Shown one piece after another: positions 40,216-44,648 of a stretch of 60,169 nt of DNA. A program made the translations under genes and the position numbers. The notes beneath the pieces were generated by a model. It saw only the letters and a program-made list of their open reading frames with translations, did no database searches and had not been told where the DNA came from. Origin of the DNA: an uncultured virus (IMG/VR IMGVR_UViG_3300006919_000039) (Duplodnaviria > Heunggongvirae > Uroviricota > Caudoviricetes); IMG/VR virus record IMGVR_UViG_3300006919_000039; one strand, written 5' to 3'. Each line of letters starts with the position of its first letter. Position 1 is the stretch's first letter.

Positions 40216-41981
40216 TGTTAAAAATTAAAAACGTATCAGCAAAGAATTTTATGAGTGTTGGCAACAACACACAGGCAGTCAATTTTGACAACTGTCAACT
40301 TACTCTTGTGCTAGGACATAACCTGGATATGGGAGGAGATGGTAGCAGGAATGGTACAGGTAAAACTACTATAATAAATGCTCTCAGTTATGCTCTTTAT
40401 GGAGATGCCTTAACAAATATTCGCAAAGACAACCTAATAAACAAAACAAACGGTAAAGGCATGATTGTTACTGTGGAGTTTGAAATTAAAGGAAAACAAT
40501 ACAGAATAGAACGTGGCAGACGTCCTAATATACTTAAATTTTCTATAGATGGCCAAGATGCATTAGATAATGAACAACAAGGCGACAGCAGAGAAACACA
40601 GAAAGAAATAGAAAAAATTATTGGTTTTCCTCATAATATGTTTAAGCATCTGATTGCACTAAACACTTATACCGAGCCTTTCCTGAGCATGAAAAACAAT
40701 GATCAAAGGGACATGATAGAGCAATTACTGGGTATAACTGAGTTATCACGTAAAGCAGAAGTGTTAAAAGAAAGACAAAAAAACACTAAAGAATCAATTA
40801 AAGAGGAAGAAATACGCATAAATGCTGTGGAAGAAAGCAATAAACGTATAGAAAAAAATATCAAAGAGATAGAAAGTCGCAGTAAGGCTTGGGAAGCCAA
40901 TAAAAATACCAAAATACAAGAACTTGGCAATGCTATTGTAAAACTAGAAACTATTAATATTGATGATGAATTAGACAATCACAAAATAAAATCTACCCTC
41001 AAAGATCAACTTCAACTGAAATCCACCACAGAATCTGAATTAAGCAGAACATCGGTTTCACTAAAGAGAAGTATGGAAAAAATTGATGAACTTAAAAGCA
41101 ATTTAGAAAGTGCCAAAGAGGGTGTTTGTCCTGCTTGTGGGCAAGATACAGCACATCTGGAAACACACGAAGATTATACAGAAGAATTAAAAGACAAAAT
41201 AGACACTGAGCAAACATACTATGATGAACTGTATACCAGAGTGCAAGAACTGGAAGGTAAATTATCTGAGTTTGGTGAATTACCGCAAGAACCAGATACT
41301 GCTTATAGCAATCTGGCAGATGCTTTACAACACAAACACAATCTGGAATCCATGATGTCCCAACTGGAAGAAAAGGCTCAGGAAGATAATCCTTATATTG
41401 AACAAATTGAAGGTTTACAAACTACAGGTATTCAGGAAATCAGTTTTGAGACCATGAATGAGCTCACATATCTGCAAGAGCATCAGGACTTTTTATACAA
41501 ATTGCTCACAAGCAAAGACAGTTTTATCAGAAAGAAAATTATTGATCAAAACATAGCCTATTTAAATCACAGACTAGCATATTATCTGGAAAAATTAGGC
41601 TTACCACATGATGTTAAATTTAGCAGTGATCTAAGTGTAGAGATTACAGAGTATGGCAGAGATTTAGACTTTGATAATTTGAGTAGAGGTGAACGTAACA
41701 GACTTATACTTGGTTTAAGTTGGGCATTCAGAGACATGTATGAAAGTTTAAACAGGCCCATGAACTTGCTCTGCATTGATGAACTTGTGGATTCCGGAAT
41801 GGATACCATGGGTGTGGAAAATGCTTTGGCGATACTGAAAAAAATGCATCGTGAACAAGGTAAAAACATCATGCTGATATCACACAAAGAGGAATTAGTT
41901 GGTCGTGTAAACAACGTATTAACAGTTGTTAAAGAAGGAGGCTTTACGGCTTATAACACAGACACAGACTATGTCAACTGA
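40215..41981 (+). CDS. gp46: Recombination ATPase subunit (Rad50/SbcC-like)
   Basis: KNFMSVG, Walker A NGTGKTT, coiled coil with CPACG zinc hook, signature LSRGE, Walker B LLCIDE, ISH; GTG start. Confidence 0.95.
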   Translation: MLKIKNVSAKNFMSVGNNTQAVNFDNCQLTLVLGHNLDMGGDGSRNGTGKTTIINALSYALYGDALTNIRKDNLINKTNGKGMIVTVEFEIKGKQYRIERGRRPNILKFSIDGQDALDNEQQGDSRETQKEIEKIIGFPHNMFKHLIALNTYTEPFLSMKNNDQRDMIEQLLGITELSRKAEVLKERQKNTKESIKEEEIRINAVEESNKRIEKNIKEIESRSKAWEANKNTKIQELGNAIVKLETINIDDELDNHKIKSTLKDQLQLKSTTESELSRTSVSLKRSMEKIDELKSNLESAKEGVCPACGQDTAHLETHEDYTEELKDKIDTEQTYYDELYTRVQELEGKLSEFGELPQEPDTAYSNLADALQHKHNLESMMSQLEEKAQEDNPYIEQIEGLQTTGIQEISFETMNELTYLQEHQDFLYKLLTSKDSFIRKKIIDQNIAYLNHRLAYYLEKLGLPHDVKFSSDLSVEITEYGRDLDFDNLSRGERNRLILGLSWAFRDMYESLNRPMNLLCIDELVDSGMDTMGVENALAILKKMHREQGKNIMLISHKEELVGRVNNVLTVVKEGGFTAYNTDTDYVN

Positions 41982-42562
41982 TGATTTTAATTCTTACCAC
42001 TCCCAGAACAGGTAGTACCTGGTACTGTGAATATCTAGCAAAACAGCATTCGCTGGAAAATCTGGATGAGTATTTTGGCAAATATGAATATAATTTATTA
42101 GATCAAAATCAAAAGTTAGAATATCTGACAGACAATCCGGATGTAGTGTTTAAATGTTTTCCCTGGCACATTAAAAATATCCGTAATAATTTTATCAGAG
42201 CAGGATTTTTAGAACACAATTTATTTAAACTGGCTGATGAAATCCATATTTTGACCCGCAACGATTTTCACAGTCAAATTAAAAGTTTTTATATAGCACA
42301 GGAAACTGGTGTCTGGGATGGTTCACCACAAAAGCCGGAAACACTAACACTTGACCAGAATAAATTTGACTATTGGACATGGCATCTGAAAGATGGTTAT
42401 ATGCATTTGTCAGAATACTTTAAAAAGTTTGAGTGTAAATTAATAGATTTTTCTGAATTACCTTTTCATACCGATACTAACGAAAAGTATATAAGACCTA
42501 TTAAATGGTCTAGCGAACCAATTATTCAAGATTTTAATATTACTGAATTGTTTAAAACTTAA
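41981..42562 (+). CDS. Sulfotransferase-like protein (Stf0-like)
   Basis: PAPS-binding loop TTPRTGST near the N-terminus; LTRNDFHSQIKSFYIAQETGVW resembles the 3'-phosphate-binding segment. Confidence 0.7.
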   Translation: MILILTTPRTGSTWYCEYLAKQHSLENLDEYFGKYEYNLLDQNQKLEYLTDNPDVVFKCFPWHIKNIRNNFIRAGFLEHNLFKLADEIHILTRNDFHSQIKSFYIAQETGVWDGSPQKPETLTLDQNKFDYWTWHLKDGYMHLSEYFKKFECKLIDFSELPFHTDTNEKYIRPIKWSSEPIIQDFNITELFKT

Positions 42563-42563
42563 C

Positions 42564-43056
42564 AGACACTTCGTGTCTTTACAAACTACATTCAATCGTT
42601 TCGTTTCACTCAACTCTTTCATTTGTTTGTAATTTTTTTAAAAGCCGTTATCATGTAAGTTGGAGTCATAATTCACCTGTTACAGGTGAACAATGATGTC
42701 ATCATGTGAAGTCTTCATCATCTCAATCTCGGGTGCTGTTAAGAAGCGGTGGGCCTTTACTCCTCATACACTACCGTCACTGGTGTCCCACGGAAACCTG
42801 TATAACCTAGATGAGTTTAGTTATACTGATTCTCAGGTTGCTTATTCTCAGAGCCTGAATCGTTTAATACTGTTTGTCGTGTTTGTATCTCATTTGCCGC
42901 TATACATCTCCAGTATCTCGCACCGGGTGTTGCCATTGCCGGATTGTCAAGGAGCCAGATTTAATTTGCCTCTGTTGGGGCCGGTGTATAGTCCTATGTA
43001 ATGCCTGTGTTTGTGCCTTGATGTGAATTGTGTTCTAACTTTCGTCTTAACACACC
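42564..43056 (-). ncRNA. Candidate large structured non-coding RNA (~500 nt), family unassigned
   Basis: By far the longest intergenic gap in the window, visibly GC-richer than its flanks, with many helices: 42564-42578, 42579-42586/42625-42632, 42672-42690, 42800-42806/42820-42826, 42900-42906/42985-42991, and a GAAA-tetraloop hairpin at 43030-43053. Strand inferred from GNRA loops, G-U pairs and the upstream operon. Confidence 0.65.
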
Positions 43057-43059
43057 TAC

Positions 43060-43482
43060 TTAGTAGTCTTTTAAGGTCTCTTTAAGGATTTTAGAACCAC
43101 CAACCCTTACGTTGATAATTCCATTATAATAATCATCTGTTTCAAGTACTCGCCTTTCGAATTGCTCTCTGGCTTCCAAGTAACTTGCAACTCCTCTTGT
43201 AGGACAAAAATATAATATTTCTCTACGGAAATTTTCTTCTCCTAATTCTATTACATCGTTGTTTAAATGATCGCTACTCCCCCAATAAGTACGCCAGTCG
43301 CTTTCTTTTGTGCCACGTCTTTTATTTTTTCTGCCTTTTAATGGAGGTTTGGTTGTTTTGAATTTTGCTAATTTTTTTCCAACATATTTCATGTCGTTTG
43401 TAAGGTTTGTAATTAAATATACAAACGCCTCACAATCATCTGGAAGTTCTGATATTTCTTTGTCTTTATAATACCAACTCAT
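43060..43482 (-). CDS. Compact GIY-YIG family nuclease
   Basis: FVYLITN...KYVGKK (GIY-YIG strands), YWGSS, FRREIL, conserved Glu in LEAREQF, and YYN; 140 aa with no C-terminal DNA-binding module. Confidence 0.8.
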   Translation of the reverse strand: MSWYYKDKEISELPDDCEAFVYLITNLTNDMKYVGKKLAKFKTTKPPLKGRKNKRRGTKESDWRTYWGSSDHLNNDVIELGEENFRREILYFCPTRGVASYLEAREQFERRVLETDDYYNGIINVRVGGSKILKETLKDY

Positions 43483-43679
43483 TACATATCTTCTGATACT
43501 GGTTTACCTGCTTTTGCTTTAAAATAATTATTGATAGTTTTTGCTACTAATTGCCTTTGAGGTAAACTCATAGTCCAAACGTCTGCAAAACTCAGACTAC
43601 CTTGTGCATAGATAACCATTTCGGTTACTTCTTTGTTAATGGCATCTGAATCTTCATTGAGCTTCCTAAGGTATGCCAC
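43482..43679 (-). CDS. gp51-like / tail chaperone C-terminal extension, probably made via -1 frameshift
   Basis: LSFADVWTMSLPQRQLV resembles gp51/gpT-type domains. Its frame is open back through the slippery site of the upstream gene; the GGAGG is only 2 nt from the GTG. Confidence 0.7.
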   Translation of the reverse strand: MAYLRKLNEDSDAINKEVTEMVIYAQGSLSFADVWTMSLPQRQLVAKTINNYFKAKAGKPVSEDM

Positions 43680-43702
43680 TACCTCCTCAGGCTCTGCACG
43701 AG

Positions 43703-44584
43703 CTAGGAAGCCGTGAAAAAATTTACTGTATTAAAGTTTACAATACTTTCAAATGTAAACTCTTCTCCTTCTGGTAATTTTTCACTACAGGGCTCACATG
43801 TCATTTGCATTGTTTTTTGCACACCTTTATTACCCATTTCTGTAATAAATTTTTCCAACTCTTTTCCAATACTTGCATCACAGTTTTCTAAAAATTCTTT
43901 TATGTGTGCATATTCAGTAACAACAATAGCCTCGCTTTCTTTGGTTGCTGGTATAATAATAGAACTTATGGAATCAACAAGTATATCAAAATTAAGATTT
44001 GCAAGTTCTATAAAATTACTATTAAAAGCTCTTAACTTTTCTACCTCATCTGAGATTTCTGCAATGCTCTGCAAACTTCTTTCACTTCTAAAATTTGCCA
44101 CACCGGCTTTTACAGAAGTTTCATAACTAAAAGGTCTCATAGTAATTAAAAGACCATTTTCTGTGCTGAATTCATATTTACTGTCTATAGGTTCCATATT
44201 TGAAAGAACAACTTCAACACTGATAATAGCACTTGCTTGTTCTCCACACTGAGTACATGATGCATTAACATCTAACTCGTCTCCAAAAGTTGCACCTTGG
44301 ATAGCAACTAAAAGTGCATCTACATCATTAGCAATTAATTTTCTGGGTTGCTTGACATTGGGTACACAACTTTGAATAACTTGTGCAACTGCTTCTCCAT
44401 TTAACAATGCATCAGGATTTTTCATCATGATTTCATCTTTTGCAGTCATTGGATATATAGGTAGTTCATTGGTTGAAGGCATATCTATAATGCTTTCGTC
44501 ATAAAATACTCCGTTTGAAGGTAAACTAGAATATATTTTTGGTGTCCTAAAGTGACCTACTAGAGGGTTATTTGTATTGGACAT
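43703..44584 (-). CDS. Baseplate hub assembly / tail assembly chaperone, T4 gp26-like
   Basis: LPSNG.FY...IYPMTAKDEIMMKNPDALLNG...SCVP...DVDALLVAI..ATFG, two CxxC pairs and a terminal NFF; AGGAG SD; divergent from the tape measure gene. Confidence 0.8.
   Translation of the reverse strand: MSNTNNPLVGHFRTPKIYSSLPSNGVFYDESIIDMPSTNELPIYPMTAKDEIMMKNPDALLNGEAVAQVIQSCVPNVKQPRKLIANDVDALLVAIQGATFGDELDVNASCTQCGEQASAIISVEVVLSNMEPIDSKYEFSTENGLLITMRPFSYETSVKAGVANFRSERSLQSIAEISDEVEKLRAFNSNFIELANLNFDILVDSISSIIIPATKESEAIVVTEYAHIKEFLENCDASIGKELEKFITEMGNKGVQKTMQMTCEPCSEKLPEGEEFTFESIVNFNTVNFFTAS
43715..43724 (-). other. Programmed -1 ribosomal frameshift site (A AAU UUU UUC)
   Basis: Two overlapping in-phase X XXY YYZ heptamers, with a downstream stem GCUUCCUA/UAGGAAGC; the -1 frame runs directly into 43482..43679. 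Confidence 0.8.
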
Positions 44585-44608: not shown

Positions 44609-44648
44609 GATAAATATGTTATAAGTGATTTATCAGATAATATTTATC
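44609..44648. promoter_or_regulatory. Face-to-face late promoters: GATAAATA (+, 44609-44616) and GATAAATA (-, 44641-44648)
   Basis: Exact motifs in the gap between the divergent chaperone and tape measure genes. Confidence 0.7.

What the first reader, a model, noticed from the sequence alone, without database searches (positions are those of the whole stretch)
42564..43482. Compact GIY-YIG nuclease followed directly by a ~500-nt ornate RNA: candidate nuclease-RNA system
Seen: other intergenic gaps here are under ~180 nt, but 42563-43059 has no credible gene and is packed with helices. On the minus strand these are GUGUU-aa-GAC[GAAA]GUU-ag-AACAC a few nt after the nuclease stop; CUAUACA+CCGG pairing with CUGG+UGUAUAG around a multibranch core; GAUU-CAGG...CCUG-ag-AAUC enclosing GCU[CUGAGAAUA]AGC; GUAUAAC/GUUAUAC; CCGU/ACGG; GAGGAG/CUUCUU; UUCACCUG[UAA]CAGGUGAA; UUACAAAC/GUUUGUAA; and AGACAC[GAA]GUGUCU. 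The upstream 140-aa GIY-YIG protein has no NUMOD/HTH targeting domain but carries a K/R-rich insert (KFKTTKPPLKGRKNKRRGTKE). No terminator separates the two, so both would lie on the late transcript from 44641. Known: HEARO/OMEGA loci pair compact nucleases with large RNAs, and phages carry large ornate RNAs (GOLLD, ROOL). Inference: this RNA is a scaffold, guide or substrate of the nuclease, or an independent phage RNA machine. I cannot assign it to a family.
Basis: partly seen in the sequence, partly recalled or inferred. Interest (0 to 1): 0.85.

Follow-up and report, generated by a model that had tools for sequence, protein, structure and literature searches.

The report
New large folded RNA of marine phages
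The gap after this small nuclease gene encodes a real, uncatalogued, roughly 440-base intricately folded RNA shared by hundreds of uncultured marine T4-like phages; it always sits next to a nuclease gene but does not appear to be that nuclease's guide.

Summary
Window 42564-43000 (minus strand) is a conserved, ORF-free, about 440-nt RNA with at least 16 helices and a pseudoknot. On 19 homologues, 97.6% of cells pair, 46 of 96 pairs show compensatory changes, and slid controls give 8-13. G-U outnumbers A-C 886 to 59, which fixes the folded strand. Rfam 15, ARAGORN and six literature searches found no known family.

Three divergent clades exist in IMG/VR. In scans that started from RNA motifs, 227 of 229 judgeable loci have the SegE-type GIY-YIG gene just upstream on the same strand. 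The other two have an unrelated PD-(D/E)XK nuclease in that slot.

The nuclease-RNA pair has flipped orientation at least three times between gp46 and the baseplate-hub genes. No empty site was found (75 of 75).

Four results argue against a guide or cofactor role:
- The nuclease is about 75% identical in phages without the RNA.
- Metabolic genes, some on the opposite strand, are inserted between the two in 8 loci.
- The nuclease can be replaced by another family.
- The RNA's variable positions do not track nuclease residues.

One feature is unexplained. Two direct repeats flanking a hairpin change in concert by identity (16 variants, 80 of 85 identical) and have no complementary partner.

Verdict: a new phage RNA family, most likely autonomous, function unknown.

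The parts
43060..43482 (-). 140-aa stand-alone SegE-type GIY-YIG nuclease gene, catalytic domain only
   Evidence: Pfam PF19835 E 5e-33 covering residues 3-123. phrog_447 E 4.8e-36. AlphaFold model pLDDT 86.2. Best structural matches are all GIY-YIG: I-TevI catalytic domain Z 7.5, PD-T4-3 Z 7.2, UvrC N-domain Z 5.6, T4 EndoII Z 4.7.
43001..43059 (-). Variable A/C-rich leader between the nuclease stop codon and the conserved core. In the window it holds a subclade-specific hairpin (43030-43053) and CAAGGCA-type short repeats.
   Evidence: Alignments. There are 1-4 copies of the NA(N)GGC[AT] unit in 53 distinct leaders, composition A 0.42 and C 0.24. The block is kept next to the RNA in loci where other genes are inserted.
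42564..43000 (-). Conserved core of the structured RNA (about 437 nt)
   Evidence: nhmmer profile positions 5-441 match window 43000-42564, E 1.4e-131. 96 pairs, 97.6% of cells paired, 46 pairs with compensatory changes. Median identity 0.77 against 0.54 at third codon positions of the neighbouring gene.
42900..42991 (-). 5' domain: helix 2 (42985-42991 with 42900-42906) enclosing helices 3 and 4
   Evidence: Helix 3 has 4 of 4 pairs with compensatory changes.
42794..42858 (-). Central hairpins: helices 6/7 (42833-42858, invariant UGAGAAnAAGCAACC loop region) and helix 8 (42794-42832)
   Evidence: Helix 6 has 3 of 5 and helix 8 has 7 of 12 pairs with compensatory changes.
42811..42815 (-). Pseudoknot 5' strand: loop of helix 8 (CUCAU), pairing with 42722-42727
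   Evidence: Found by the G-test scan (ranks 4, 11, 14, 90). 5 of 5 pairs have compensatory changes and 100% are paired (helix 9).
42722..42727 (-). Pseudoknot 3' strand (A-U-UGAG, one bulged U)
42730..42776 (-). Helices 12/13 with the most conserved sequence blocks (GACGGUAGUGUAUG ... AGCACCCGAG) and an internal loop that resembles a tetraloop-receptor motif (resemblance recalled, not tested)
   Evidence: This block was used as the motif for the RNA-first scan.
42698..42722 (-). Repeat R1 (GAUGAUGAAGACUUCACAUGAUGAC)
   Evidence: Changes in concert, by identity, with R2.
42672..42690 (-). Helix 14, hairpin between the repeats, loop of GNRA type in many homologues
   Evidence: 4 of 8 pairs with compensatory changes.
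42647..42670 (-). Repeat R2 (UAUGACUCCAACUUACAUGAUAAC)
   Evidence: The six-position signature is identical to R1 in 80 of 85 distinct RNAs, with 16 signatures and 9-11 changes per position on the tree.
42579..42632 (-). 3' domain, helices 15 and 16
   Evidence: 6 of 8 and 3 of 4 pairs with compensatory changes.
42564..42578 (-). Terminal hairpin AGACAC-GAA-GUGUCU followed by GUUAAGUUUU: likely 3' end or terminator
   Evidence: Terminator-like hit. 4 of 6 pairs have compensatory changes (helix 17).
41981..42562 (+). Convergent neighbour: 193-aa Stf0-sulfotransferase-like gene. It is not part of the element and is present in only 3 of the 80 related loci.
   Evidence: Pfam PF09037 E 1.5e-5. (L103, L141, L161).
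43482..44584 (-). Upstream operon in this arrangement: baseplate hub gene (43703-44584) and a 65-aa ORF (43482-43679) whose stop overlaps the nuclease start
   Evidence: Pfam PF12322, phrog_150. Sequence.

Best explanation
Window 42564-43000, read on the minus strand, is the gene of a previously uncatalogued, about 440-nt, multi-domain, pseudoknotted RNA. It is a fixed feature of a large lineage of uncultured marine T4-like phages.

How it is made (inferred): it is transcribed in the same direction as the 140-aa GIY-YIG gene. Transcription runs either on from that gene's mRNA or from a start in the conserved block that begins at the nuclease stop codon. It ends at its own terminal hairpin.

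How it relates to the nuclease: my reading is that it is an autonomous RNA, not a guide or cofactor of the GIY-YIG protein. The nuclease gene and the RNA gene form a two-gene cassette that is kept together and turned over as a unit. The most likely reason is that the RNA's 5' control region overlaps the end of the nuclease gene. The RNA's activity does not depend on which nuclease, if any, is made.

Where it acts (inferred): the working surface most likely includes the two short repeats R1 and R2 on either side of hairpin 14. These present the same fast-changing sequence twice and so probably contact two copies of one variable partner.

Shown: the RNA, its fold, its strand, its distribution, its linkage and the concerted repeats. 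Inferred: transcription, autonomy and the role of the repeats.
For: Fold:
- RNAalifold on 19 homologues gives 91 pairs, 41 with compensatory changes.
- With the pseudoknot added there are 96 pairs. 97.6% of cells pair against 87.1% in shuffles (0 of 500 reach it). 46 pairs have two-sided changes against 8-13 when partners are slid. The covariation score is 0.365 against 0.045-0.072.

Strand and selection:
- 886 G-U against 59 A-C cells over 105 pairs in 85 distinct RNAs.
- RNA identity to the window is 0.77 against 0.54 at third codon positions next door.
- The alifold energy is -131.3 on this strand and -111.8 on the reverse complement.
- No conserved ORF.

Not a known family: Rfam gathering gives 0 hits in the whole window. 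E-value mode gives only chance snoRNA rows with E at or above 1.7. ARAGORN gives 0.

Distribution:
- The nuclease has at least 598 relatives in IMG/VR.
- RNA-motif-first scans each hit 101 to at least 120 stretches for three clades.
- There is no true copy in 185,579 species genomes.

Linkage:
- The nuclease lies upstream on the same strand in 76 of 76, 76 of 78 and 75 of 75 judgeable loci.
- A gp46-first scan gave 75 of 75 with both.
- Orientation relative to gp46 and the hub genes is 22 against 52 loci, with 4 switches on the cassette tree (at least 3 forced by well-supported branches).

Autonomy:
- Melnitz phages have the nuclease at 75.6% identity, and the whole 141,548-bp genome gives no RNA match.
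- Cyanophages have the nuclease with no gap after it.
- 8 loci carry insertions of 0.6-1.5 kb between nuclease and RNA. Seven hold an ORF on the opposite strand. Two of four tested are 2OG-Fe(II) oxygenases and one is an IMPDH/GMP reductase. The block from GATAACTA onward stays with the RNA.
- L437 and L469 carry a PF24608 PD-(D/E)XK nuclease in the slot (E 1.4e-22), and the 204,100-bp record holds no GIY-YIG homologue.
- There is no excess association between R1/R2 columns and nuclease residues: best 0.30-0.40 against a mean best of 0.41 for all RNA columns.

Repeats.
Against: - That an RNA is made, and where it starts and ends, is inferred.
- Covariation with G-T tolerance would also fit a fold of the single DNA strand.
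- Single-sequence folding energy is not significant.
- The near-perfect linkage with a nuclease gene (227 of 229, the other two with another nuclease) and its survival through at least 3 inversions is what a functional pair would also show. 'Some nuclease is always there' can be read as dependence on a nuclease activity.
- The loci are not independent samples. Many are near-copies, and the three scans overlap in contigs.
- The record without a GIY-YIG gene is estimated to be only 56% complete.
- The promoter reading of the GATAACTA block is weak. TATAAATA occurs 3 times in the window against 10.7 expected, and the window's own version (TACTAAGTA) is a poorer match.
- No partner for R1/R2 was found, so their role is a guess.
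Confidence: 0.6

Rival explanations
1. Nuclease-RNA particle. The RNA binds the GIY-YIG protein and guides, scaffolds or regulates it, in the manner of the omega RNAs of IscB and TnpB. R1/R2 would serve as the programmable part.
For: - Strict co-orientation and adjacency in 227 of 229 loci, and survival of the pair through at least 3 inversions.
- The nuclease has no DNA-binding domain of its own and carries a basic hairpin.
- R1/R2 are a variable segment inside a conserved scaffold.
Against: - The same protein, 73-76% identical and with the basic segment, serves phages without the RNA.
- Opposite-strand genes are inserted between the two.
- It is replaced by an unrelated nuclease fold.
- R1/R2 columns do not track nuclease residues.
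- No complement of R1/R2 was found in the window, in 3 kb either side in 85 loci, or in three 80-92-kb contigs.
- No RNA-guided GIY-YIG enzyme is known to me (recalled). The one compact site-specific family I read about, Ssn, does not bind RNA (passages of PMC11893778).
Confidence: 0.08
2. The locus is a replication or recombination start site. The folded transcript would act on its own DNA (an R-loop or primer RNA, as ColE1 RNA II does). R1/R2 would be iteron-like sites for one phage protein whose specificity drifts. The neighbouring structure-specific nuclease would process the hybrid.
For: - Direct repeats that change in concert are what iterons do (recalled).
- An A-run and an A+T-rich 3' domain follow R2.
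- The slot holds nucleases of two folds whose relatives cut branched DNA (SLX1-type GIY-YIG, Hjc-type PD-(D/E)XK; recalled).
- The position is next to the recombination genes gp46/47.
That note is a lead, not evidence.
Against: - Nothing here tests replication.
- The element's many tertiary-looking features (pseudoknot, GNRA-type loops) and its terminal hairpin fit a free RNA.
- The fixed differences between R1 and R2 (one extra C, G against A) are kept in all three clades. That argues for an asymmetric structural role rather than two equal protein sites.
- GC skew only follows gene direction.
Confidence: 0.14
3. Homing cassette. The nuclease is a free-standing homing endonuclease whose cleavage site lies in the conserved RNA gene of competing phages. 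The RNA is simply the conserved target it rides beside, and R1/R2 vary to escape cutting.
For: - The family is named after T4 SegE, and the best structural match is I-TevI.
- The nuclease gene sits in other places in related phages, for instance after nrdB in Melnitz.
- A nuclease of another family occupies the same slot in 2 loci.
- The cassette flips.
- R1/R2 evolve fast.
Against: - No empty site: 75 of 75 gp46-first loci have both genes. No RNA gene lacks an upstream nuclease.
- The protein is as conserved as core genes (73-100% against 61-100% for gp46).
- It lacks the DNA-binding half of Seg proteins.
- Escape from cutting does not explain why R1 and R2 must stay identical to each other.
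Confidence: 0.12
4. Cis-acting tail of the operon. The structure would be a long 3' untranslated region that stabilises the nuclease mRNA, or insulates the convergent early and late transcription units. It would have no role as a free RNA.
For: - It lies at a convergent junction.
- No terminator separates it from the nuclease gene, and a terminator-like hairpin ends it.
Against: - About 440 nt with 16 covarying helices and a pseudoknot is far more than stabilisers or terminators need.
- It is kept when an opposite-strand gene separates it from the nuclease gene.
- It serves in both an early-type and a late-type operon context.
Confidence: 0.05
5. Decayed or unrecognised protein-coding sequence, for instance the lost DNA-binding half of a longer Seg-type nuclease.
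For: - T4 SegE is longer than 140 aa (recalled).
- The window has a 102-aa ORF on the plus strand.
Against: - No ORF is conserved in any frame across 22 homologues.
- Indels are not in threes.
- Compensatory base-pair changes occur throughout.
- Homologues of about 140-148 aa are the norm of the family; the phrog_447 profile is 148 long.
Confidence: 0.01

Closest known systems
HEARO / omega RNAs of IscB and TnpB (OMEGA systems)
   Same: A large structured RNA is encoded directly beside a compact nuclease gene and is inherited with it. A variable segment sits inside a conserved scaffold.
   Different: - No match to any Rfam model, HEARO included.
- The nuclease is GIY-YIG, not RuvC/HNH.
- No transposon ends were seen.
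- The nuclease works without the RNA in related phages, can be separated from it or replaced, and no target complementary to the variable part was found.
GOLLD and ROOL, large ornate RNAs of phages and prophages
   Same: These are big, intricately folded, phage-borne RNAs of unknown function. They were found by comparative analysis and have no protein partner established (recalled; abstract of 10.1101/2024.12.08.627333 seen in the listing).
   Different: - No sequence or structure match to their Rfam models.
- Smaller, at about 440 nt.
- No tRNA genes nearby.
- Fixed position beside a nuclease gene.
- Whether it forms multimers is untested.
MobA plus the 50-nt translational bypass element of T4 gene 60 (a homing nuclease and an odd RNA element moving as one cassette)
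   Same: A small phage nuclease gene and an unusual RNA-level element are inherited as one unit. Two identical short sequences about 50 nt apart flank a hairpin, as the take-off and landing codons do (recalled, no paper read).
   Different: Here nothing is translated across the element: there is no conserved ORF, and the spacing of 46-72 nt is not in threes. The RNA is ten times larger, and the cassette is fixed rather than sporadic.
3'-UTR-derived bacterial small RNAs
   Same: The RNA starts at or just after the stop codon of the upstream gene and ends at the operon's terminator. It may be made by read-through or from an internal promoter.
   Different: It is far larger and far more structured. 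It is also kept when the upstream gene is moved 0.6-1.5 kb away.
ColE1 RNA II and iteron-type origins
   Same: A folded transcript that might act on its own DNA, and direct repeats that evolve in concert.
   Different: There is no evidence of replication function here. The repeats are only two, differ from each other at fixed positions, and lie inside the folded RNA.

Membership tests
Any Rfam 15 family (4227 models, including HEARO, GOLLD, ROOL, group I/II introns, tmRNA, RNase P, IMES, 6S) | Score at or above the family's gathering threshold | tested here: not met
   0 matches in the whole window. With E up to 10 on 42300-43700 there are only five C/D snoRNA rows at E 1.7-7.9, far below their thresholds.
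tmRNA (including two-piece forms carried by related phages) | tRNA-like domain and tag reading frame recognised by ARAGORN or Rfam | tested here: not met
   ARAGORN finds 0 genes in the window. It does find the Melnitz two-piece tmRNA, which has no nhmmer similarity to this RNA.
Group I intron | Interrupts a gene, with exons on both sides; conserved catalytic core | tested here: not met
   The RNA is followed at once by the 3' end of a convergent gene in both arrangements, so there is no downstream exon. There is no Rfam match, though Rfam's intron model may miss some subgroups.
OMEGA / HEARO-type guide RNA | Partner nuclease depends on the RNA; guide segment complementary to a target | tested here: not met
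   The nuclease is kept at about 75% identity without the RNA. No complement of the variable repeats was found. Biochemical dependence is not testable here.
GIY-YIG nuclease superfamily, SegE-type domain (PF19835) | Profile match above the curated cut-off | tested here: met
   114.4 bits against a cut-off of 25, profile 1-123 of 123.
GIY-YIG nuclease superfamily, SegE-type domain (PF19835) | GIY-YIG fold | tested here: met
   The top four structural matches are GIY-YIG domains: I-TevI Z 7.5 (rmsd 2.6, 80 aligned), PD-T4-3 Z 7.2, UvrC Z 5.6, T4 EndoII Z 4.7. Foldseek alone gave nothing at E 0.001 or better.
GIY-YIG nuclease superfamily, SegE-type domain (PF19835) | Conserved catalytic residues (the two Tyr, Arg, Glu, Asn) | tested here: inconclusive
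   Y22, Y33, G35, R87, N124 are invariant and E88 nearly so in 28 homologues. Their equivalence to the I-TevI catalytic residues is recalled, not aligned residue by residue.
Free-standing homing endonuclease (T4 Seg/Mob type) | Sporadic presence: related genomes with an empty site | tested here: not met
   75 of 75 judgeable gp46-first loci carry the gene at the junction.
Free-standing homing endonuclease (T4 Seg/Mob type) | Separate DNA-binding domain behind the catalytic domain | tested here: not met
   140 aa, with only the catalytic-domain match. The model shows one domain plus a short terminal helix.
Free-standing homing endonuclease (T4 Seg/Mob type) | Cuts a site near its own gene in genomes that lack it | not testable with these tools
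   Needs cleavage assays.
Type III toxin-antitoxin (ToxIN-like) | Tandem RNA repeats upstream of an endoribonuclease gene | tested here: not met
   The RNA is downstream. Only two short repeats lie inside a large unique fold. The PADLOC library was not searched.
Ssn-type single-strand-specific GIY-YIG nucleases | Membership of the Ssn family and a repeated genomic target motif | not tested
   Only passages of PMC11893778 were read. No Ssn sequence was compared.

The most novel reading that the evidence does not exclude
The RNA is a self-specifying recognition device. Its twin loops R1 and R2 carry the same fast-evolving 'address' and pair with, or are read together with, a matching sequence present twice. 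One example would be the homologous locus of a co-infecting phage genome, or the RNA's own DNA. This would mark 'same allele' against 'foreign allele'. The structure-specific nuclease encoded next door (GIY-YIG, or PD-(D/E)XK where it has been swapped) would cut the resulting hybrid. That would be a new kind of RNA-directed, allele-specific nuclease system used in competition or recombination between phages.
Probability: 0.07. Interest if true: 0.95.

Novelty: new variant of a known kind. Interest (0 to 1): 0.74.

Why it matters
Large, intricately folded non-coding RNAs are rare, and each one found so far has opened new biology (ribozymes, guide RNAs, RNA cages). This one is abundant: hundreds of contigs in three divergent clades of ocean phages, some over 200 kb. 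It is under clear selection and is absent from Rfam and from the papers I could search.

It also shows something I know from no other RNA. Two direct repeats change together by identity, not by complementarity. That points to a partner read twice, or to a kind of RNA contact not yet described.

Its constant pairing with a small nuclease gene, through inversions and even a swap of nuclease family, gives a concrete, testable question about how phage nucleases and RNAs cooperate. If the RNA proves autonomous, it is a new candidate 'ornate' RNA for structural study. If it proves to direct the nuclease, it would be a new class of RNA-linked nuclease.

Tried and rejected
1. Known RNA families: Rfam gathering and E-value modes and ARAGORN gave nothing.

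2. tmRNA idea, raised because Melnitz phages carry a 453-nt two-piece tmRNA: rejected. ARAGORN recognises that one but nothing here, and there is no nhmmer similarity.

3. Cellular copies: the RNA motif hit 57 stretches in 185,579 species genomes. The 43-nt hits are the coding sequence of rubredoxin-like proteins (CSVCGY...AAPE). The four hits with other spacings that I looked at (L217, L229, L239, L260) have no similarity beyond the pattern. No Rfam family lies under the match in the 14 loci scanned.

4. Partner for R1/R2:
- No complement in the window at up to 2 mismatches.
- None within 3 kb either side in 85 loci at 12 of 14 or better.
- No positional enrichment of 8-mers.
- No excess of 6-bp helices inside the transcript over permuted controls: best 31 against 16 of 85.
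- Only the self match at up to 1 mismatch in three 80-92-kb contigs, with counts like the reversed-pattern control.

5. Hidden repeated ORF or ribosome hop between R1 and R2: the spacing of 46-72 nt is not in threes, and there is no ORF.

6. Kissing of R1 with R2 through a palindromic core: this fits CAUG and CGUG but not CUUG (16 of 85), and does not explain the other concerted positions.

7. Co-evolution of R1/R2 with the nuclease: none above background.

8. Duplication of the nuclease gene's tail next to the RNA in insertion loci (lead from e1-5736986): clear in 1 of 8 (L111) and weak or absent in 7.

9. T4-type late promoter at the stop codon: TATAAATA is under-represented in the window, at 3 against 10.7 expected, so this is left as a weak suggestion.

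10. Foldseek against the PDB gave no match at E 0.001 or better. The wider aligner was needed. A sequence search of the PDB gave 0.

11. blastn against 50,697 phage records found only a 110-nt match inside the nuclease gene, so no cultured phage in that collection shows the RNA at that sensitivity.

13. Literature: six searches found no description. The supplementary tables of PMC10690425 (over 10,000 candidate viral RNAs from IMG/VR) were not opened and may list it.
Full report
**What is at the coordinates**

The finding covers a 140-aa ORF on the minus strand (43482-43060) and the 497 nt that follow it (43059-42563).
- The ORF is a complete SegE-type GIY-YIG domain and nothing else: Pfam PF19835, E 5e-33, profile 1-123 of 123; phrog_447.
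- An AlphaFold model built on 28 homologues (pLDDT 86.2) finds GIY-YIG domains as its four best structural matches: I-TevI catalytic domain Z 7.5, PD-T4-3 Z 7.2, UvrC N-domain Z 5.6, T4 EndoII Z 4.7.
- Foldseek alone and a sequence search of the PDB gave nothing significant.
- The gap lies between convergent genes. On the other side is a sulfotransferase-like ORF on the plus strand that ends at 42562.
- The neighbourhood is that of a T4-like phage: an SbcC-like gp46, a baseplate hub protein and a 900-aa tail protein.
- G+C in the gap rises to 0.41-0.435 from about 0.33.
- Folding the window's sequence alone is not better than shuffles (z -1.0 and -0.68).

**Comparative evidence makes it real**

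- The nuclease has at least 598 relatives in IMG/VR.
- In 38 of the 80 loci kept, blastn finds the 497-nt gap right after the gene at 70-84% identity. A profile search raises this to 42 of 80.
- No reading frame is conserved. The longest ORF per frame changes from locus to locus, and the window's 102-aa plus-strand ORF is not kept.
- On 19 homologues RNAalifold predicts 91 pairs, 41 of them with compensatory changes.
- I then added a pseudoknot that I had found with a structure-blind G-test scan of 85 distinct sequences. The counting tool gave 96 pairs in 17 helices. 97.6% of cells are paired against 87.1% in shuffles (0 of 500 as high). 46 pairs have changes on both sides against 8-13 when the partners are slid by 1-3 columns. 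The covariation score is 0.365 against 0.045-0.072.
- The pseudoknot joins the loop of helix 8 to a strand 85 nt downstream. It has compensatory changes in 5 of 5 pairs.
- Over 105 pairs and 85 sequences there are 886 G-U cells and 59 A-C cells. The folded strand is therefore the window's minus strand, the sense of the nuclease gene.
- The region is 77% identical to the window at the median. Third codon positions of the adjacent nuclease gene are 54% identical. It is therefore under purifying selection as a non-coding sequence.
- A terminator-like hairpin (42578-42564) closes it, and no such site lies between it and the nuclease gene.
- The conserved core is 43000-42564. The 59 nt between the stop codon and the core are a variable A/C-rich leader with short CAAGGCA-type repeats.
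GAUU/AAUC and CCGU/ACGG are not. The first hairpin is confined to the window's subclade.

**It is not a known RNA**

- Rfam 15 gives no match at gathering thresholds in the whole window, and only chance snoRNA rows at E 1.7 or worse in the region.
- ARAGORN finds nothing.
- The closest cultured phages, the Methylophilales phages Melnitz, carry a two-piece tmRNA of similar size. ARAGORN recognises that one, and it shares nothing with this RNA.
- A scan of one genome for each of 185,579 prokaryote species with the RNA's most conserved motif returned 57 stretches. The 43-nt hits are the coding sequence of a rubredoxin-like protein motif, and the few of other lengths that I inspected look like chance.
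- Six full-text searches found no description. I read passages of PMC10690425 and of a 2026 preprint and found no mention. The supplementary tables of PMC10690425 were not opened.
- Two earlier notes of this scan (e1-5735907, e1-5736986) describe what is evidently the same family in another genome. They are unpublished machine notes, and I treated them as leads.

**Distribution and linkage**

The family has three clades. Clade I includes the window. Clades II and III keep the architecture and several sequence blocks but align only in part.

I searched IMG/VR with an RNA motif of each clade, without reference to the nuclease. Each scan hit between 101 and at least 120 stretches.

| Clade | Judgeable loci with the GIY-YIG gene upstream, same strand |
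|---|---|
| I | 76 of 76 |
| II | 76 of 78 |
| III | 75 of 75 |

- In clade I, 4 further loci end fewer than 250 nt upstream and cannot be judged.
- The two exceptions, L437 and L469, are near-identical. They carry a PF24608 PD-(D/E)XK endonuclease gene in the same slot (E 1.4e-22). Their 204,100-bp record holds no GIY-YIG homologue, although it is rated only 56% complete.
- Starting from gp46 instead, 75 of 75 judgeable loci have both nuclease and RNA. There is no 'empty site'.
- The pair always lies between gp46 and the baseplate-hub operon, but in either orientation. It lies downstream of the hub operon, as in the window, in 22 loci. It lies downstream of gp46 in 52.
- On a tree of the cassette itself the orientation changes 4 times, with at least 3 changes forced by well-supported branches.
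- Nuclease and RNA thus stay together, in the same order and sense, through repeated inversion.
- These loci are not independent samples. Many are close copies, and the scans overlap.

**Why I do not think the RNA serves this nuclease**

   - In Melnitz it follows nrdB with small ORFs after it, and the whole 141,548-bp genome gives no match to the RNA.
   - Cyanophages P-HM1 and S-SRM01 have it with no gap.
2. In 8 of the 76 clade-I loci, 0.6-1.5 kb are inserted between nuclease and RNA.
   - Seven hold a 159-169-aa ORF on the opposite strand. Two of the three of these that I tested are 2OG-Fe(II) oxygenases.
   - One holds an IMPDH/GMP-reductase gene.
   - In these loci the RNA keeps its upstream block from the motif GATAACTA onward. 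That suggests a start of its own.
   - That this block is a promoter is weakly founded, since the T4 late motif is rare in this window.
   - A duplicated tail of the nuclease gene, as reported in e1-5736986, is clear in only 1 of the 8.
3. An unrelated nuclease can take the slot.
4. The fast-varying RNA positions show no association with any nuclease residue beyond the phylogenetic background.
5. The pair sits in an early-type operon in one orientation and a late-type operon in the other. The timing of nuclease expression is therefore not conserved.

Against my reading: a nuclease gene of some kind is always there. That is also what a functional dependence on nuclease activity would produce.

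**The unexplained feature**

Two segments of about 25 nt, R1 (42722-42698) and R2 (42670-42647), flank hairpin 14. They are direct repeats of each other with two fixed differences: R1 has one extra C and a G where R2 has an A.
- At six to eight other positions they vary among phages, and they vary together by identity (for example UU/AA/CC at one pair of columns and AA/UU/GG at another). These are the top-scoring column pairs of the whole alignment.
- The six-position signature is the same in R1 and R2 in 80 of 85 distinct RNAs. There are 16 signatures.
- On a tree built without these columns each position changes 9-11 times.
- The same coupling is seen in clades II and III.
- No column in the RNA covaries with them by complementarity.
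- I found no complementary sequence in the window, in 3 kb on either side in 85 loci, inside the transcript above permuted controls, or in three contigs of 80-92 kb.
- The spacing (46-72 nt, not in threes) and the lack of an ORF exclude a translational hop or a hidden repeated ORF.
- Gene conversion would erase the fixed differences, so identity itself seems to be selected.

The simplest reading is that both repeats meet the same variable partner. That partner could be a nucleic acid outside the sequences I could see, or a protein whose specificity drifts. A parallel contact between the two strands is a more exotic alternative.

**Mechanism, with odds**

I put about 0.9 on 'a real, selected, folded nucleic acid on the minus strand, new to the catalogues'.

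For how it works, my estimates are:

| Reading | Estimate |
|---|---|
| Autonomous RNA, transcribed with or just behind the nuclease gene, whose twin repeats are its specificity surface | 0.6 |
| Origin- or R-loop-type element acting on its own DNA | about 0.14 |
| Homing cassette in which the RNA gene is the target | 0.12 |
| Nuclease-RNA particle | 0.08 |
| Mere 3' untranslated region or insulator | 0.05 |
| Coding remnant | 0.01 |

The 0.6 for autonomy includes a much lower confidence in the stated role of the repeats. None of these readings can be settled without transcript and biochemical data.

**Comparison and novelty**

In layout the element resembles nuclease-associated RNAs (HEARO, omega RNAs). 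In size and ornateness it resembles GOLLD and ROOL. It fails the membership tests for all of them. It belongs to the known broad kind 'large structured phage RNA of unknown function', but as a new family with two unusual traits: obligatory company of a small nuclease gene, and identity-coupled twin repeats.

Noticed in passing
L437:2256-2768 (minus strand of the stored locus) and L469, same place: In two near-identical clade-II contigs the slot upstream of the RNA holds a PF24608 PD-(D/E)XK phage endonuclease instead of the GIY-YIG gene. It is preceded by an Hc1 histone-H1-like 69-aa ORF (PF07432, E 1.6e-14). The 204-kb record has no GIY-YIG homologue.
   Followed up: partly
L116:2898-3392, L111:1037-1519, L090:1405-1905, L089:748-1776: Auxiliary metabolic genes are inserted between nuclease and RNA in 8 loci: 2OG-Fe(II) oxygenase-like ORFs on the opposite strand (Pfam hit in 2 of 3 tested) and, in L089, an IMPDH/GMP-reductase gene (E 2.4e-72).
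   Followed up: partly
window 43001-43059 and the homologous leaders: The leader before the RNA core is A/C-rich. It is built of 1-4 short tandem units (CAAGGCAC-like, or AGAC-N3-5-GUC mini-hairpins) whose number and type differ between phages. The last unit merges into the first conserved helix (ACAUAGGAC). In L437 the units are UUUUAACAGCAC, three times. Function unknown.
   Followed up: partly
window 41981-42562 (+): A 193-aa Stf0-sulfotransferase-like gene (PF09037, N-terminal 33 residues only, E 1.5e-5) sits between gp46 and the RNA in the window. It is present in only 3 of 80 related loci, so it looks like a recent cargo gene.
   Followed up: no
window, whole: The T4 late-promoter octamer TATAAATA occurs 3 times against 10.7 expected from shuffles. 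Upstream of the hub gene the sequence GATAAATA (about 44641-44648, minus strand) may be the local late-promoter form.
   Followed up: no
virus records G001, G003-G005: Contigs of 48-92 kb carrying the cassette are rated only 13-26% complete, and clade II/III contigs reach 186-268 kb. These phages may therefore have genomes far larger than the 141-kb Melnitz phages.
   Followed up: no
window 42690-42672 and homologues: The loop of hairpin 14 is GNRA-like in many homologues (GUAA, GCAA, GAGA). The internal loop of helices 12/13 (UAUGG ... CCUAAU) resembles an 11-nt tetraloop receptor, so a tertiary contact is possible (motif recalled, not tested).
   Followed up: no
alignment columns 234, 328 and 341 of the 85-sequence alignment: One unpaired position upstream (in the GUGAGAUUC region) covaries with a base pair of hairpin 14. 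It is identical to the 3' base and complementary to the 5' base, as a base triple or an alternative pairing would be.
   Followed up: no
L205-L261 (genome contigs): The RNA motif pattern matches by chance the coding sequence of a rubredoxin-like motif (KFVCSVCGYVYEG..AAPE..CPVC) in many Lachnospiraceae and Gastranaerophilales genomes. This is a warning for motif-only scans.
   Followed up: yes
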